Notes under the pieces: model-generated
Told to the model about the DNA's origin: nothing
What the model saw: only the letters and a program-made list of their open reading frames with translations
Databases searched by the model: none
Virus record (IMG/VR): IMGVR_UViG_3300014970_000027
Strand: one strand, 5' to 3'
Length of the DNA stretch: 4,248 nt
Source of the DNA: a virus
Taxonomy: Duplodnaviria; Heunggongvirae; Uroviricota; Caudoviricetes
Position numbers and translations under genes: made by a program
Shown: positions 539 through 4,248 of the stretch, piece after piece
Layout: each line of letters starts with the position of its first letter
How positions within the stretch are numbered: position 1 is the first letter of the stretch

Positions 539-1288
539 TCAGTCAATTGTTTTGTTTATTCCATCTGTGACGCCGATTATTTTCTCAAAATAATGAGATG
601 GCGTGACACCATAATAATTTTTAAATGCACATATGAAATATGAAGTACTGTTATAGCCACATTTCTGGGCTACGACATTGATAGAATAAGAATTTGAAGT
701 TATGAGTTTTTTTGCATACCTCATCCTAGTATCTCTCAATATTTCAGTAAATGACGTTCCTTCATCCCTTAATCTTTTTTTTATTAAACTTTCACTCGTA
801 TAAATCAATTCCGCAATATCTTTTAAATGCCATTGCCGCTCAATATTAAAACTGATTATTCCAGTAATTTTACAGGTGAATGTATTTATATTTGTTAGTA
901 TAAAAGAATTTACACTTTCGCGTTTTTTGAACATGGCAAGTAAGGATATACATAGTCTTTCTTTTAACCAAAGGGAGTGTGAGTCTGCTATTTTAATCCC
1001 TTCAAACAGAGAAAAAACAAGCGATAATGGAGGTTCCTCTTCAGCAATATAGCCATTCTTATCAAGAGTAAATTTGCCAGGCAGCTCATTATTCACGTCG
1101 ATAAAAAAGGATAAACATGTTTTCTTATCTATATCAACAATTCTTAGTTTAGAGGGGCATACTGGTAACTCCCTTCTAATTTTGTCGCTTACAATAAACA
1201 ATGAATTTTTTTTGAACGAGATAACTCTCCTGTTTATAATTAAATCAAATGATTGACAGATGAAAACTACGGAGCAAACATAATCCAT
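539..1288 (-). CDS. appY: AraC-family transcriptional activator AppY (249 aa)
   Basis: Complete ORF from ATG at 1288..1286 to its stop, preceded by an AGGTGCAGG Shine-Dalgarno-like sequence. The translation begins [27 protein letters not shown], which I recognise as E. coli AppY. The C-terminal ~100 aa has the typical AraC/XylS double helix-turn-helix region (...[40 protein letters not shown]...[23 protein letters not shown]). The gene is AT-rich (about 32% GC in a hand-counted 60-nt sample at 601..660). Confidence 0.9.
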
Positions 1289-1860
1289 CCTGCACCTATC
1301 ATAAAATTAAAACAAGTTGATAGCAGTCAAATAACAACCAATTAAATACACAATCATAATCAGGATGATGTGCATTTATATTTTTATACACAAAATTATA
1401 GTTTGCAAATTTTAATAAATTTCATTTAAGATTAAATTATTATATGTATATTCTTTTTTATTCTAACGTATTTCAAAGTTACATTTTTCAACGCTTACTA
1501 TACTTTTTATTAACATAAACTCACTACAACGCACCTGAAACCTCTTGCTATATATATGTCAACCGTTTGAATTTAAAATAAAAAGAGTATCATTTTTACT
1601 TGCATTTCTTATCAAGTCACATTCAACAACAGTAAAAAAACATTATTAGAACCATTCAATTAACAAAAAACCAACATCCAGCTTGCTTAATTTTTCTTTA
1701 TTAAACGATATTGAAAATCAATTGATAAAATACATCTAAACAACCTTTTGGGGCGCAAAAGCATAACATCAAACAAACAAATAACACACCGAAAAAACTC
1801 ACAATTAATAACCTATGATATACATACTGTTTATTATGGTTGAATAAGCCACTCGATATC
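1289..1860 (-). promoter_or_regulatory. Extremely AT-rich, ORF-free upstream/leader region of appY; presumed promoter and nucleoid-protein (H-NS-type) silencing region
   Basis: The six-frame track shows no ORF of 60 aa or more on either strand. A hand-counted 60-nt sample at 1381..1440 is about 12% GC. The region sits directly 5' of the appY start on the - strand. Exact -35/-10 elements were not assigned. Confidence 0.5.
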
Positions 1861-1913
1861 TGGTGCTACGGAAGTGTCCACACGGTTTAGCAGCACCCGA
1901 TACTTTTTCCAGG

Positions 1914-1923
1914 NNNNNNNNNN
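1914..1923. other. Run of 10 ambiguous bases (N); assembly gap or masked sequence
   Basis: Literal nnnnnnnnnn in the sequence, located in the intergenic region 50 nt downstream (on the - strand) of the 97-aa gene stop. Confidence 0.99.
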
Positions 1924-1972
1924 AAGAAAAATTTAGTTTTCTTCCTCCGTTGCATATACAGCTCACCTTTTT

Positions 1973-2266
1973 TCACCCACGATTAACCAACAGCCAGACC
2001 AGCAGACACGCCACCACCGGCACAGCAAAATCCATCAGGCTTGCCACATCCCATGCACGTGTATCAAAACCGCCCCACCACGGCATATTCATTCGCTTGC
2101 CATGCCCGAACATTTCGATCCAGCGATATTCTGCCTGGGTGTGTTCACGCGCAATGAAGAACGTACAACCGGCTATCGCCCCGTAAGCCCAGTTTCCGGT
2201 AAAAAGACCAACCAGTACCTGCGCAGCCACAGCACAAAGTGCATGAAGGAAAGGTGTTATATCCAT
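1973..2266 (-). CDS. Small predicted multi-pass membrane protein (97 aa), unknown function; last gene of the tail-fibre operon
   Basis: ATG at 2266..2264 is preceded by a strong Shine-Dalgarno sequence (AAGGAGG, complement of 2271..2276) with a 4-nt spacer, 10 nt after the stop of the upstream 234-aa gene. The translation has two long hydrophobic stretches (about residues 9-38, ALCAVAAQVLVGLFTGNWAYGAIAGCTFFIA, and about 75-93, LMDFAVPVVACLLVWLLV) separated by a charged, aromatic-rich loop (REHTQAEYRWIEMFGHGKRMNMPWWGGFDTRAWD). No lipobox was found. Confidence 0.6.
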   Translation of the reverse strand: MDITPFLHALCAVAAQVLVGLFTGNWAYGAIAGCTFFIAREHTQAEYRWIEMFGHGKRMNMPWWGGFDTRAWDVASLMDFAVPVVACLLVWLLVNRG

Positions 2267-2270
2267 TACG

Positions 2271-2276
2271 CCTCCT
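2271..2276 (-). promoter_or_regulatory. Shine-Dalgarno sequence (AGGAGG) for the 97-aa membrane protein gene
   Basis: The - strand reads TAA-AGGAGG-CGTA-ATG; this is a perfect consensus ribosome-binding site at optimal spacing. Confidence 0.65.
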
Positions 2277-2981
2277 TTATCCGATATCGCTTCGGGAAGT
2301 TAATAACAACTTTAATTCTGACTCAAGTTCATCAACTCTTTCAGTCAGTTTCTGGATATGGTGAATCAGTGGAACAACCAGACGTTCGTACATTACACCT
2401 TCGGCAACAAGGCCATTGCTGGAAATAGCTTCAGGAGCATCATCTTCGTTAGCTGGTCGCCAGTGTACAAACTGAGGGGCAATTTCTCCTACTTCCTCGG
2501 CAATCAATCCGTAGAACCCCCAGTCACGCCTGTCATTTTCGCATTGCGACCTGTACCACACAGGGCGCATCCTGAAAATGACATCGGCGTGCTCTGAATC
2601 TATCGTCTCTACTGAATGTTTATAGCGAATAGACGATGTTGACCGCAGTACAGACGAAATTGCAGGGTCAGGATTAAGATAAAGGTTTGCCGCCGCTGTA
2701 GTCGTGCCCAATCCCCACAAATAAAACGCTTCACGGCCAGTCAACGGGTAAAAATCTCCACCATAACGACCGCTTTCCAGATCGTTCACTTCCAGTTTGT
2801 TTTTCAGCTTATTATCAACTTCAGTTTTTGTGTATCTGGTACTGATATCCTGCTTTGCACTGGTCATATCAGTCTGAAGCGTTGATACTTTTCCGTTAAT
2901 TGAGGAAATATCTTCCTTAGTTTTACTGACATCTCCCTTTAGCGTGGTGATATCTCCTGGAATTACTGTCGATGTAGCCAT
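2277..2981 (-). CDS. 234-aa protein: N-terminal coiled-coil region plus C-terminal intramolecular-chaperone-like domain (peptidase S74 / 'chaperone of endosialidase' type); probable short fibre or fibre-tip protein
   Basis: ATG at 2981..2979 with a GAGGGAG Shine-Dalgarno sequence immediately upstream, overlapping the stop of the 93-aa gene. Residues ~10-70 are heptad-like and rich in K/E/D/S/T (DITTLKGDVSKTKEDISSINGKVSTLQTDMTSAKQDISTRYTKTEVDNKLKNKLEVNDLES). Residues 116-234 carry the motifs I associate with the self-cleaving C-terminal chaperone domain of phage tail fibres/tailspikes: S-x-x-R-x-K (S116-S-I-R119-Y-K121, nt 2619..2636), then PVWY, GFYGLIAEEVGEIAPQFV, and YERLVVPLIHHIQKLTERVDELESELKLL. 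Confidence 0.7.
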   Translation of the reverse strand: MATSTVIPGDITTLKGDVSKTKEDISSINGKVSTLQTDMTSAKQDISTRYTKTEVDNKLKNKLEVNDLESGRYGGDFYPLTGREAFYLWGLGTTTAAANLYLNPDPAISSVLRSTSSIRYKHSVETIDSEHADVIFRMRPVWYRSQCENDRRDWGFYGLIAEEVGEIAPQFVHWRPANEDDAPEAISSNGLVAEGVMYERLVVPLIHHIQKLTERVDELESELKLLLTSRSDIG

Positions 2982-2985
2982 TTGT

Positions 2986-2992
2986 CTCCCTC
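2986..2992 (-). promoter_or_regulatory. Shine-Dalgarno sequence for the 234-aa gene, overlapping the stop codon of the 93-aa gene
   Basis: The - strand reads TGAGGGAGACAA-ATG, a 9-nt intergenic spacer. Confidence 0.55.
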
Positions 2993-3272
2993 ACATCCAG
3001 CCACGAAGTTGATGCTCAACAACAACCGCGTATTTATCGAATATTGACGATTTTTTTGCATCATTAATGATGCGCACGTTTACAAAATATCCGTCTTCCT
3101 TAACACATACCGGTTCGCCATCTTCAGTCAGTTCTCCGGTTTCTTTGTACACGTTACCTATCACGTCAATAAGAATATCATCCTGCATCGACTCGTCATC
3201 ATAATAGCCAATACTCTCCATAAAGGCCGAAAAGTCGGCCCTGTCTGCAAATTTGAGTGTTAAATCTTTCAT
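2991..3272 (-). CDS. Small acidic hypothetical protein (93 aa), translationally coupled between the tail-fibre gene and the 234-aa gene
   Basis: Its ATG (3272..3270) overlaps the TGA stop of the tail-fibre gene (3271..3269) in an ATGA arrangement. A GGGGGAG Shine-Dalgarno sequence lies 8 nt upstream (complement of 3281..3287). The translation MKDLTLKFADRADFSAFMESIGYYDDESMQDDILIDVIGNVYKETGELTEDGEPVCVKEDGYFVNVRIINDAKKSSIFDKYAVVVEHQLRGWM is strongly acidic and has no hydrophobic segment. I recognise no family. Confidence 0.6.
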   Translation of the reverse strand: MKDLTLKFADRADFSAFMESIGYYDDESMQDDILIDVIGNVYKETGELTEDGEPVCVKEDGYFVNVRIINDAKKSSIFDKYAVVVEHQLRGWM

Positions 3273-4248
3273 TTAATACTCTCCCCCATTTGCGCATCAG
3301 TTAATTCTTTATGCCAGATACGCAGATTACGGATATGACCAAAAAGATGATACTCCCCATTAGTGCCCTGCCCTCCAATTCGCAATACTGCCCGTGGAAC
3401 AATTGAAGTCCATGTTGTTTTTGCCGCAACAGATAATTCACCATTACATACGGCCTGAACATCTCCATCAGCGCCACAACGGAAGCCTGAAATGATTTTC
3501 CTCTGGGTTGTTGCCACATATTTATTACACCCTCCCATAGAAATAAAAGGAGAACCGGCATCAGAGAAATTATTACCACGGAATCCATGCGTGAACAGAC
3601 CATTTTCCTGATAATCTTTAACATTAAAGATTAATGGTGATTTGCTGGGAGGGATATCCCAGTTTTTATTAACTTCAACAAGAGCACTGAATGGTAATCG
3701 GTGAATATTGTTTCTTACAGGTATTGTCACCATGTCGCTGGAGCGAGTGCCAGGAGCCCCTTCAGTAATGATAAATGACGTCCTGTACGACCCAATCTCC
3801 GCCTGAGGCATCGCAATATCTAACGTAGAGCCATTGGGGATAATACTGATTCCAGGCATCGCCAGGATTTCAAATCTTGAGCTGATTATCATTTCCGCAT
3901 CTGCAAAAAGAGTGGCGGTAAACAACCACCATTCACCGACTCTTTCTGCCGTCACCGTCACATTATTTCCATGAACAACATTTCCCGTAACAGGATCCAG
4001 AGCTGCATCTGAATGAAAAACAAACGCACCATTATCAGACATTTTTCCGAACCTTGCACGACACCGGGAATTATCACTTTTCGTCAGACACGATATCGTC
4101 GTATAAGAACCTGCCGGGCAGGTGTAAGCATCATTCGTGTTTACAGCAATTGCCTGATATCCTTGTGCTGTCGGATTTTCATTAATAACAGTTATCCTTC
4201 CATAGTTAAACCCCTTATCACTGTCGAACGACTCAACAGACACACTAA
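3269..4248 (-). CDS. Phage tail-fibre / host-specificity protein, C-terminal region with lectin-like (LamG/concanavalin-A-like) distal domain; 5' end probably outside the window
   Basis: The reading frame is open to the window edge; the first in-window candidate start is a GTG at 4243..4241, so the gene is probably longer. Stop is TGA at 3271..3269. The C-terminal sequence ...RIGGQGTNGEYHLFGHIRNLRIWHKELTDAQM resembles the terminal signature of LamG_3-type jelly-roll domains (F-x-G-x-I-D-E-V-R-I-Y-N-R-A-L-S-x-x-E-I). The translation is rich in G/S/T/N and beta-strand-like. About 52% GC in a hand-counted sample at 2401..2460 of the same module. Confidence 0.7.
   Translation of the reverse strand, partial: SVSVESFDSDKGFNYGRITVINENPTAQGYQAIAVNTNDAYTCPAGSYTTISCLTKSDNSRCRARFGKMSDNGAFVFHSDAALDPVTGNVVHGNNVTVTAERVGEWWLFTATLFADAEMIISSRFEILAMPGISIIPNGSTLDIAMPQAEIGSYRTSFIITEGAPGTRSSDMVTIPVRNNIHRLPFSALVEVNKNWDIPPSKSPLIFNVKDYQENGLFTHGFRGNNFSDAGSPFISMGGCNKYVATTQRKIISGFRCGADGDVQAVCNGELSVAAKTTWTSIVPRAVLRIGGQGTNGEYHLFGHIRNLRIWHKELTDAQMGESIK

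What the first reader, a model, noticed from the sequence alone, without database searches (positions are those of the whole stretch)
2991..3272. Orphan acidic 93-aa protein translationally coupled to the fibre gene
The ATGA stop/start overlap with the fibre gene implies stoichiometric coupling to fibre synthesis. The protein is strongly acidic (many D/E, e.g. YYDDESMQDDILIDV, ELTEDGEPVCVKEDGY) with no hydrophobic segment. I cannot place it in any family. Candidate roles are a dedicated fibre assembly/folding factor replacing Tfa, or a fibre-associated accessory protein.
Basis: inference. Interest (0 to 1): 0.42.

Follow-up and report, generated by a model that had tools for sequence, protein, structure and literature searches.

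The report
Small companion protein of lectin-tipped phage fibres
The 93-residue acidic protein is a real, conserved gene that sits at the stop codon of one type of phage tail fibre (a lectin-like tip) in every locus I examined, across at least seven phage lineages, so it is most likely that fibre's assembly helper; its function has never been tested.

Summary
It has an ATGA stop/start overlap with the fibre gene and a GGAG ribosome-binding site. It has pI 4.3 and no hydrophobic segment.

It is not an orphan. It belongs to PHROG 1361 (function unknown). tblastn finds it in 186 GenBank phage records and it is common in E. coli prophages. It matches no Pfam, NCBIfam or PADLOC model and no solved structure.

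Comparative genomics shows:
- It always directly follows a fibre ending in the same C-terminal module, a GTA-head-spike-fibre domain plus a LamG/galectin-like end. This holds in lambdoid, T5-like, rV5-like, Drexlerviridae, Dhillonvirus and Queuovirinae phages and in an unrelated temperate siphovirus group.
- Of 76 loci chosen only by the fibre's C-terminal motif, all 76 carry it, and 75 overlap the fibre stop by 4 nt or 1 nt.
- It persists where no distal fibre gene follows.
- It stays 88-100% identical while the fibre tip falls to 32-41% identity.

Best reading (about 0.5): a dedicated, non-Tfa assembly factor acting on the conserved core of this fibre tip. Main rival (about 0.25): a structural joint between the proximal and distal fibres.

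The window lies at the appY end of an E. coli DLP12-like prophage. Interest is moderate.

The parts
3269..4248 (-). 3' part of the side tail fibre gene (Stf; C-terminal 324 codons in the window, gene runs off the window end). This is the lectin-type tip module.
   Evidence: ORF. It is 100% identical to the C-terminus of the 781-aa 'prophage tail fiber N-terminal domain-containing protein' of E. coli B REL606. NF048003 GTA_spike_fiber matches at E = 3.5e-11, above cut-off. Laminin_G_3 matches weakly, below cut-off, at residues 262-318. PHROG 1419 'tail protein' matches at E = 7e-86.
3279..3287 (-). Shine-Dalgarno run GGGGGAGAG for ORF93, lying inside the last codons of the fibre gene.
   Evidence: Read directly from the sequence. 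The GGAG core ends 8 nt before the ATG.
3269..3272 (-). ATGA overlap: the fibre TGA stop shares bases with the ORF93 ATG start.
   Evidence: The same 4-nt overlap, or a 1-nt (TAATG-type) overlap, occurs in nearly all related loci and in 75 of 76 loci picked by the fibre motif alone.
2991..3272 (-). ORF93: 93-aa acidic soluble protein of PHROG 1361, the finding itself.
   Evidence: The AlphaFold2 model built on a diverse alignment has pLDDT 86 and pTM 0.71, with an alpha/beta sandwich fold.
2277..2981 (-). ORF234: short distal fibre-like protein. It has the N-terminal motif MATSTVIP.DI..LK, then a coiled coil, then a Peptidase_S74 intramolecular-chaperone domain. It starts 9 nt after the ORF93 stop behind GGGAG.
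   Evidence: (PF13884, E = 4.9e-6, above cut-off). It alternates with a 346-aa allele that shares only the first 27-32 residues.
1973..2266 (-). ORF97: small membrane protein (PHROG 1443), last gene of the module. It follows ORF93 directly in temperate phages that lack a distal fibre gene.
1834..1953 (-). Remnant of a tail fibre assembly (Tfa) gene, interrupted in the window by an N run at 1914-1923.
   Evidence: Coordinates are transferred from the REL606 annotation, which calls it 'tail fiber assembly protein, incomplete, missing N-terminus'. The N run is shown.

Best explanation
ORF93 is the dedicated accessory (assembly) protein of tail fibres that end in the 'GTA-head-spike-fibre domain plus LamG/galectin-like' C-terminal module.

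Proposed mechanism:
- Ribosomes finishing the fibre reinitiate at the overlapping ATGA, so ORF93 would be made in roughly equal amounts to fibre chains.
- The small acidic alpha/beta protein then binds invariant elements of the nascent C-terminal module. Candidates are the conserved N-flank and the last ~40 residues (IRIGGQ..RHLFGHIRNFRIWHKELTD), not the hypervariable lectin loops.
- This helps the C-terminal end fold and register, which is where fibres normally nucleate.
- It thus does the job that Tfa or an intramolecular S74 chaperone does for other fibre types. It may stay on the tip as a small cap.

Shown here: the gene is real and under purifying selection; the start/stop overlap is conserved; co-occurrence with this fibre tip is complete in the sample; it does not depend on a distal fibre; it does not track the fibre-tip allele.

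Inferred: physical binding, chaperone activity, and the protein's fate after assembly.
For: (1) Position and coupling. An ATGA or 1-nt overlap with the fibre stop is seen in nearly all of 96 loci: lambdoid prophages, T5-like IrisVonRoten and AKFV33, rV5-like CarlMeissner, Drexlerviridae swan01 and PeterMerian, Dhillonvirus Ioannina, Queuovirinae JenP2 and phiG7, and the unrelated temperate siphovirus contigs L086-L088.

(2) Co-occurrence. All 76 IMG/VR loci selected only by the fibre C-terminal motif (and with enough downstream sequence) carry a family member at the fibre stop. tblastn finds 205 phage records with the fibre tip and 186 with ORF93, with almost the same organism breakdown. The three sampled cases that looked like exceptions are divergent members by profile search, E = 1e-19 to 1e-22.

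(3) Shared fibre module. Every upstream fibre tested has NF048003 above cut-off, followed by about 150-170 further residues to the C-terminus. This includes L086 and L089, which BLAST did not link to the window's fibre.

(4) Independence from a distal fibre. The gene is intact in phages with no distal fibre gene: mEp460_4F5, the lambda-like 1W and 4A7 group, and L086-L088.

(5) Allele independence. ORF93 stays 88-100% identical across at least 11 fibre-tip alleles that are only 32-41% identical to the window's. It combines freely with both downstream fibre types. This fits binding to the conserved core.

(6) No other chaperone. The fibre tip has no S74 domain, and tfa is only a remnant here.

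(7) Gene position. Established phage biology, from my own knowledge: fibre chaperones (lambda Tfa, P2 G, Mu U, T4 gp38) are encoded directly downstream of the fibre they serve.
Against: - Only two structure jobs were allowed, both spent on the monomer, so no complex prediction was run.
- No virion proteomics covers a 10-kDa protein. The AKFV33 study analysed four gel bands only (PMC3326045).
- Gene order (proximal fibre, small gene, distal fibre) also fits a structural joint.
- High conservation next to a hypervariable tip could partly reflect its place in a conserved recombination flank rather than binding constraints.
Confidence: 0.5

Rival explanations
1. Structural joint or adaptor. ORF93 stays in the virion at the end of the proximal fibre and forms the socket on which distal fibres dock through their shared N-terminal peptide (M[AV]T.T[VI]IP.DI..LK). 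This would be analogous in role to T4 gp35/gp36 between gp34 and gp37.
For: - In most loci it lies between a proximal fibre and a second fibre gene that starts 9-12 nt after its stop.
- Distal fibres of otherwise unrelated sequence and length (about 224 to 586 aa) share the N-terminal motif across lambdoid, Drexlerviridae, T5-like and Queuovirinae phages.
- The recombination boundary in the 346-aa allele falls just after that motif.
- The overlap suggests equimolar synthesis.
- The BASEL authors annotate the IrisVonRoten homologue (gp23) as 'tail fiber protein'. They model Gp24 as attaching to the proximal fibre Gp22 (PMC11990801).
Against: - The gene is retained intact where there is no distal fibre gene at all: mEp460_4F5, the lambda-like 1W and 4A7 group, and L086-L088.
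- It is also retained where the next fibre has an unrelated N-terminus: Ioannina, IME178, CarlMeissner and L181.
- No similar chain is found in any solved phage structure.
Confidence: 0.25
2. Transient cap or inhibitor. ORF93 masks the glycan-binding site of the lectin tip inside the producing cell, preventing binding to cell-envelope precursors or debris, and is released later.
For: - The pairing with a lectin-type tip is strict and the overlap suggests equimolar synthesis.
- The concept has precedent in the 'transient chaperone caps' proposed for Alteromonas phage fibres (PMC10579305).
- The acidic surface could mimic anionic glycans. This last point is my own inference only.
Against: - ORF93 does not co-vary with the hypervariable region of the tip, which presumably holds the binding site. 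The same ORF93 alleles pair with tips 32-41% identical to the window's.
- The Alteromonas caps resemble S74-type chaperone domains, which ORF93 does not.
Confidence: 0.1
3. Unrelated passenger gene. ORF93 is a moron, an anti-defence protein or a DNA mimic that merely rides in the conserved flank of a recombining host-range cassette.
For: - Small, very acidic phage proteins are often DNA mimics or anti-restriction proteins (my own knowledge).
- ORF93 sits in the conserved flank next to a mosaic region.
- The function is unknown in every database searched.
Against: - It is never found away from the fibre stop codon. It holds the same position and overlap in virulent and temperate phages of at least seven lineages, down to 28% identity.
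- It lies in the late structural operon, not among early genes.
- It has no PADLOC or Pfam anti-restriction match.
Confidence: 0.08

Closest known systems
Tail fibre assembly proteins of the Tfa type (lambda Tfa, P2 G, Mu U; Pfam Caudo_TAP)
   Same: Small gene immediately downstream of, and tightly coupled to, the fibre gene. It travels with the fibre's C-terminal module during horizontal exchange. In this prophage it occupies the place where a Tfa gene has decayed to a remnant.
   Different: No sequence match for any of 17 diverse members, even at E <= 1. It is roughly half the size of lambda Tfa or P2 G (sizes from my own knowledge). The fold is a single alpha/beta sandwich with no informative PDB neighbour. 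It serves a lectin-type tip rather than Tfa-dependent tips.
Intramolecular chaperone domains (Peptidase_S74; T5 pb1, K1F endosialidase) and the free-standing S74-like 'chaperone caps' of Alteromonas phages (PMC10579305)
   Same: They solve the same problem, nucleating folding at the C-terminal end of a fibre. An S74 domain is present in the very next gene, ORF234.
   Different: ORF93 has no S74 match and a different secondary-structure make-up. It is a separate polypeptide, with no evidence of autoproteolysis.
T4 long-tail-fibre joint proteins gp35/gp36
   Same: A small gene encoded between the proximal and distal fibre genes. This is the gene order seen here in most loci.
   Different: No sequence similarity was detected in Pfam scans. 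ORF93 persists in phages with no distal fibre.
IrisVonRoten (Bas32) lateral fibre locus Gp22-Gp23-Gp24, described by Humolli et al. 2025 (PMC11990801)
   Same: A direct homologue of the whole arrangement. Gp22's C-terminal 'galectin-like' region is 36% identical to the window's fibre tip, Gp23 is 38% identical to ORF93, and the overlap with the fibre stop is also 4 nt.
   Different: The distal fibre there is a 574-aa T-shaped dual receptor-binding protein instead of the 234-aa stub. In the passages I retrieved, the paper does not assign a role to the small Gp23 protein.

Membership tests
PHROG 1361 (phage protein family, unknown function) | Full-length match to the family profile | tested here: met
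   E = 1e-46 over residues 1-93 against profile positions 1-92 of 92. All 17 diverse homologues also match it.
Tfa-type tail fibre assembly proteins (Pfam Caudo_TAP and related) | Sequence match to the family model | tested here: not met
   No Pfam family at E <= 1 for ORF93. No Tfa-type family among the weak hits of 17 diverse members. No NCBIfam hit.
Tfa-type tail fibre assembly proteins (Pfam Caudo_TAP and related) | Encoded directly downstream of the fibre gene it serves | tested here: met
   4-nt overlap in the window. A 4-nt or 1-nt overlap in 75 of 76 loci chosen by the fibre motif.
Tfa-type tail fibre assembly proteins (Pfam Caudo_TAP and related) | Required for folding or trimerisation of the fibre tip | not testable with these tools
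   Needs co-expression and solubility assays, or phage deletion mutants.
Intramolecular chaperone (Peptidase_S74) | S74 domain with autocleavage motif | tested here: not met
   No PF13884 match in ORF93 or in the fibre tip. The match is in ORF234 instead, at residues 116-172.
Known anti-phage defence or anti-defence proteins | Match to a PADLOC model or to a Pfam anti-restriction family | tested here: not met
   No PADLOC hit at E <= 1. No relevant Pfam hit.
Virion structural fibre component (joint or adaptor) | Detected in purified particles, or similar to a chain of a solved phage structure | tested here: inconclusive
Companion of fibres carrying the GTA_spike_fiber (NF048003) plus LamG-like C-terminal module (grouping proposed here) | The upstream gene ends in this module | tested here: met
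   NF048003 scores above cut-off in the window's fibre and in the fibres of IrisVonRoten, CarlMeissner, L086 and L089. The fibre tip is homologous by tblastn in the 88 loci L001-L085 and L090-L092.

The most novel reading that the evidence does not exclude
ORF93 stays in the virion as a small hub at the tip of the proximal fibre. Interchangeable distal fibres would plug into it through the shared MATSTVIP-type N-terminal peptide. That would make it a universal 'socket' for modular, branched fibres that has spread among lambdoid, T5-like, T1-like and Queuovirinae coliphages.
Probability: 0.2. Interest if true: 0.6.

Novelty: new variant of a known kind. Interest (0 to 1): 0.4.

Why it matters
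Lectin-tipped lateral fibres of this type are thought to decide which O-antigen or LPS types many coliphages can reach (PMC8594841, PMC11990801). They are obvious parts for host-range engineering. If the 93-aa protein is the obligatory helper of this tip, grafts of the tip onto other phages or delivery particles will have to carry it along.

The family would also add a fold-distinct class of fibre helper, besides Tfa, gp38/gp57A and S74 domains. It would give a function to a gene now labelled 'hypothetical' in at least 186 phage genomes and in E. coli genomes generally. It is a well-defined, testable lead rather than a surprise, because accessory genes downstream of fibre genes are the rule in phages.

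Tried and rejected
- **Profile and sequence searches.** Pfam, NCBIfam and PADLOC scans of ORF93 and of 17 diverse homologues gave nothing usable. PDB sequence searches with the single protein and with a profile gave only chance-level hits.
- **First structure model.** AlphaFold2 on 24 near-identical sequences failed (pLDDT 41). A second run on the diverse alignment worked.
- **Locus searches.** The genome-contig scan returned only Escherichia-type loci. A word-indexed search with the divergent member P0160 returned only itself. The L086-type homologue has no match in GenBank phages.
- **Domain fusions.** None found. The long proteins in the representative search match only short repeat-like stretches.
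- **T5-like 'lateral tail fiber assembly protein'.** It is unrelated to ORF93, hhalign probability 0.1%.
- **Literature.** The Eligo lambda-Stf paper, the DT57C LtfA/LtfB paper (both fibres there carry S74 domains and no small ORF is mentioned), the AKFV33 proteome, and searches for PhiR49 and GTA head spikes say nothing about this protein.
- **Co-variation of ORF93's variable segment (residues 71-85).** Alleles are freely shuffled against fibre-tip allele and distal fibre type, so this does not discriminate between the explanations.

Full report
**Where the window comes from.** Bases 1800-4248 match 145 complete E. coli genomes over at least 80% of their length. E. coli B REL606 matches at 98.7% and other strains at 99.3%. 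In REL606 the region lies between appY and the tail genes of the DLP12-like lambdoid prophage. The window holds appY (539-1288, minus strand; HTH_18/AraC) and an AT-rich spacer. It then holds a tight minus-strand operon of four genes:
- the 3' end of the side tail fibre gene stf (3269 to the window end);
- ORF93 (2991-3272);
- ORF234 (2277-2981);
- ORF97 (1973-2266).

A Tfa pseudogene remnant follows at about 1834-1953.

**Checking the observation.**
- The minus strand reads ...GGGGGAGAGTATTAAATGAAAG... The fibre's TGA and ORF93's ATG share the bases ATGA at 3272-3269. A GGAG core lies 8 nt upstream of the ATG.
- The protein has 20 acidic and 10 basic residues, pI 4.31, and no hydrophobic stretch.
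- It is a real gene. 39 nucleotide alleles give dN/dS of about 0.30. Relatives down to 28% identity keep the length and a characteristic pattern: MKDLTLKF...(L/I)D.IG...DGYFVN.R...P.R.WA at the C-terminus.

**It is not an orphan.**
- The 5.8-billion-protein search found 228 clusters at 90% identity. Every hit that carries a source name is called 'hypothetical protein' or 'prophage protein', and nearly all named ones are from E. coli.
- The exhaustive search of 1.84 billion cluster representatives found 50 representatives at E <= 0.001. About 20 of them are full-length divergent members.
- It matches PHROG 1361 (unknown function) end to end.
- tblastn finds it in 186 GenBank phage records.
- Pfam, NCBIfam, PADLOC and PDB sequence searches are empty or at chance level.

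**Structure.** AlphaFold2 on near-identical sequences failed (pLDDT 41). On a 17-sequence diverse alignment it gave pLDDT 86 and pTM 0.71. The model is a compact alpha/beta sandwich in the order beta-alpha-alpha-beta-beta-beta-beta-alpha-beta, with a less confident conserved C-terminal tail.

**The constant upstream partner.** In every locus examined, the family member starts at the stop codon of a fibre gene. These fibres have unrelated N-terminal parts:
- the lambda Stf N-terminal domain in prophages;
- the lateral-fibre position of T5-like phages (IrisVonRoten, AKFV33, IME178);
- a TSP1/Gp66-type N-terminal domain in rV5-like CarlMeissner;
- lateral fibres of Drexlerviridae, Dhillonvirus and Queuovirinae.

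All of them nevertheless end in the same module. NF048003 'GTA_spike_fiber' scores above cut-off and is followed by about 150-170 further residues to the C-terminus, with a LamG-like ending. The Pfam Laminin_G_3 match is weak and below the gathering score. Humolli et al. 2025 describe the homologous end of IrisVonRoten Gp22 as a protruding 'galectin-like domain' (PMC11990801).

The same holds in two further cases:
- A temperate siphovirus group not related by BLAST (L086-L089). The small protein there is about 28% identical and the fibre was not linked by BLAST, but it matches NF048003 at E = 1e-16 to 1e-29.
- A 35% GC metagenomic contig.

**A less biased co-occurrence test.** I fetched 80 IMG/VR loci using only the fibre's C-terminal motif (RHLFGH..N.R.WH). 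All 76 with enough downstream sequence carry a family ORF. In 75 of them it overlaps the fibre stop by 4 nt or 1 nt.

In GenBank phages the fibre tip is found in 205 records and ORF93 in 186, with nearly the same organism breakdown. Three sampled cases that looked like exceptions (AKFV33 orf136, phiG7_31 and the PhiR55_1 89-aa ORF) are divergent members by profile search, E = 1e-19 to 1e-22.

**The variable downstream partner.** In most loci a second fibre gene starts 9-12 nt after the ORF93 stop. These include:
- the 234-aa coiled-coil plus S74 protein seen here;
- a 346-aa allele;
- the 574-aa T-shaped Gp24 of IrisVonRoten;
- AKFV33 orf135 and phiG7_30 (557 and 586 aa).

They share only an N-terminal motif, M[AV]T.T[VI]IP.DI..LK. 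Other loci carry fibres with unrelated N-termini: Ioannina, IME178, L181 and CarlMeissner.

Several loci have no second fibre gene at all. In mEp460_4F5 and L086-L088 the next gene is the ORF97-type membrane protein. In phage 1W the ORF97 match begins 6 nt after the ORF93 match ends, and 4A7 shows the same ORF97-only match to the window. ORF93 is therefore tied to the upstream fibre tip and not to a distal fibre.

**Allele relationships.** E. coli prophages carry at least 11 fibre-tip alleles below 80% mutual identity, each 32-41% identical to the window's. The tip is conserved at its N-flank and over its last ~40 residues and is hypervariable between them. ORF93 stays 88-100% identical across all of these alleles. 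ORF93 sub-alleles, tip alleles and the two distal fibre types occur in free combination. Whatever ORF93 touches must be a conserved element, not the variable (presumably glycan-binding) loops.

**Interpretation.** I favour an assembly factor that acts on the conserved core of the tip and takes the place of Tfa or an S74 domain (confidence about 0.5). The reasons are:
- the gene position typical of fibre chaperones;
- the overlap with the fibre stop, which suggests coupled translation;
- the lack of any other chaperone for this tip;
- the decayed tfa gene in this prophage;
- persistence of ORF93 without a distal fibre.

A structural joint between the proximal and distal fibres is the main rival (about 0.25). 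Gene order and the conserved docking-like N-terminal peptide of distal fibres support it. Loci with no distal fibre weaken it. A transient cap on the binding site (about 0.1) is disfavoured by the lack of co-variation with the variable loops. An unrelated passenger gene (under 0.1) is disfavoured by the invariant position in late operons of both virulent and temperate phages.

Nothing here demonstrates binding, chaperone activity or presence in virions. The one relevant proteome (AKFV33) examined only four large gel bands and is uninformative.

**Comparison with what is known.**
- By function, the closest known things are Tfa-type assembly proteins, but the sequence membership test fails.
- By locus, the closest published case is IrisVonRoten Gp22-Gp23-Gp24. 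In the passages I retrieved, the small protein is not assigned a role.
- BASEL annotations call the ORF234-type protein, not the ORF93-type protein, a 'putative lateral tail fiber chaperone'.

**Verdict.** The gene belongs to a catalogued but uncharacterised family whose strict partnership with one portable fibre-tip module is documented here. I rate it a new variant of a known kind (a fibre accessory protein) and of moderate interest (0.4).

Noticed in passing
window 1973-2266 (-): ORF97 is a 97-aa protein with hydrophobic N- and C-terminal segments (PHROG 1443). It follows ORF93 directly, with a 4-nt overlap, in the unrelated temperate siphovirus contigs L086-L088 (29-30% identity). It also follows ORF93 in lambda-like phages that lack a distal fibre. 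It was not detected in the virulent T5-like, rV5-like and Drexlerviridae loci scanned (L090-L092), and none is annotated after the distal fibre in the Dhillonvirus Ioannina or Nonagvirus JenP2 loci. It may be a lysogen-related membrane function or a partner of ORF93.
   Followed up: partly
window 2277-2981 (-): ORF234 is mostly a Peptidase_S74 intramolecular chaperone. If it autocleaves near residue 113, the mature product would be only a coiled-coil stub of about 113 residues. It alternates with a 346-aa allele that shares only residues 1-32. Every common fibre-tip allele occurs with both. BASEL annotates homologues as 'putative lateral tail fiber chaperone'.
   Followed up: partly
window 3272-4243 (-), and L001 7461-9806: The fibre's C-terminal ~400 residues are mosaic. 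The N-flank and the last ~40 residues are conserved, and the core is hypervariable, with at least 11 alleles below 80% identity among E. coli prophages. This looks like a cassette built for exchange by homologous recombination.
   Followed up: partly
window 1834-1953 (-), N run 1914-1923: A tail fibre assembly (Tfa) pseudogene remnant lies downstream of the module. The window has a run of 10 N here. The REL606 match is 9 bases shorter than the query over the matched span.
   Followed up: no
window 539-1288 (-) and 1289-1800: appY (an AraC-family regulator) lies here, followed by a very AT-rich spacer (23-28% GC). This marks the prophage/chromosome boundary next to ompT in E. coli B.
   Followed up: no
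GenBank records MG065635, MG065652-MG065655, MG065666, MG065676, OR848352, OR847733: Records named 'Campylobacter phage' and 'Listeria phage' carry rV5-like or T5-like coliphage fibre modules up to 100% identical to Escherichia phages. They are probably mislabelled or contaminated records.
   Followed up: no
L003 (JAGZNZ010000051.1, 'Collinsella sp.' MAG): A 2.8-kb contig binned into a Collinsella MAG encodes ORF93, ORF234 and ORF97 at 96-98% identity to this E. coli prophage module. It is probably a binning error. The upstream fibre ORF there is disrupted: its stop lies 36 nt before the ORF93 start.
   Followed up: no
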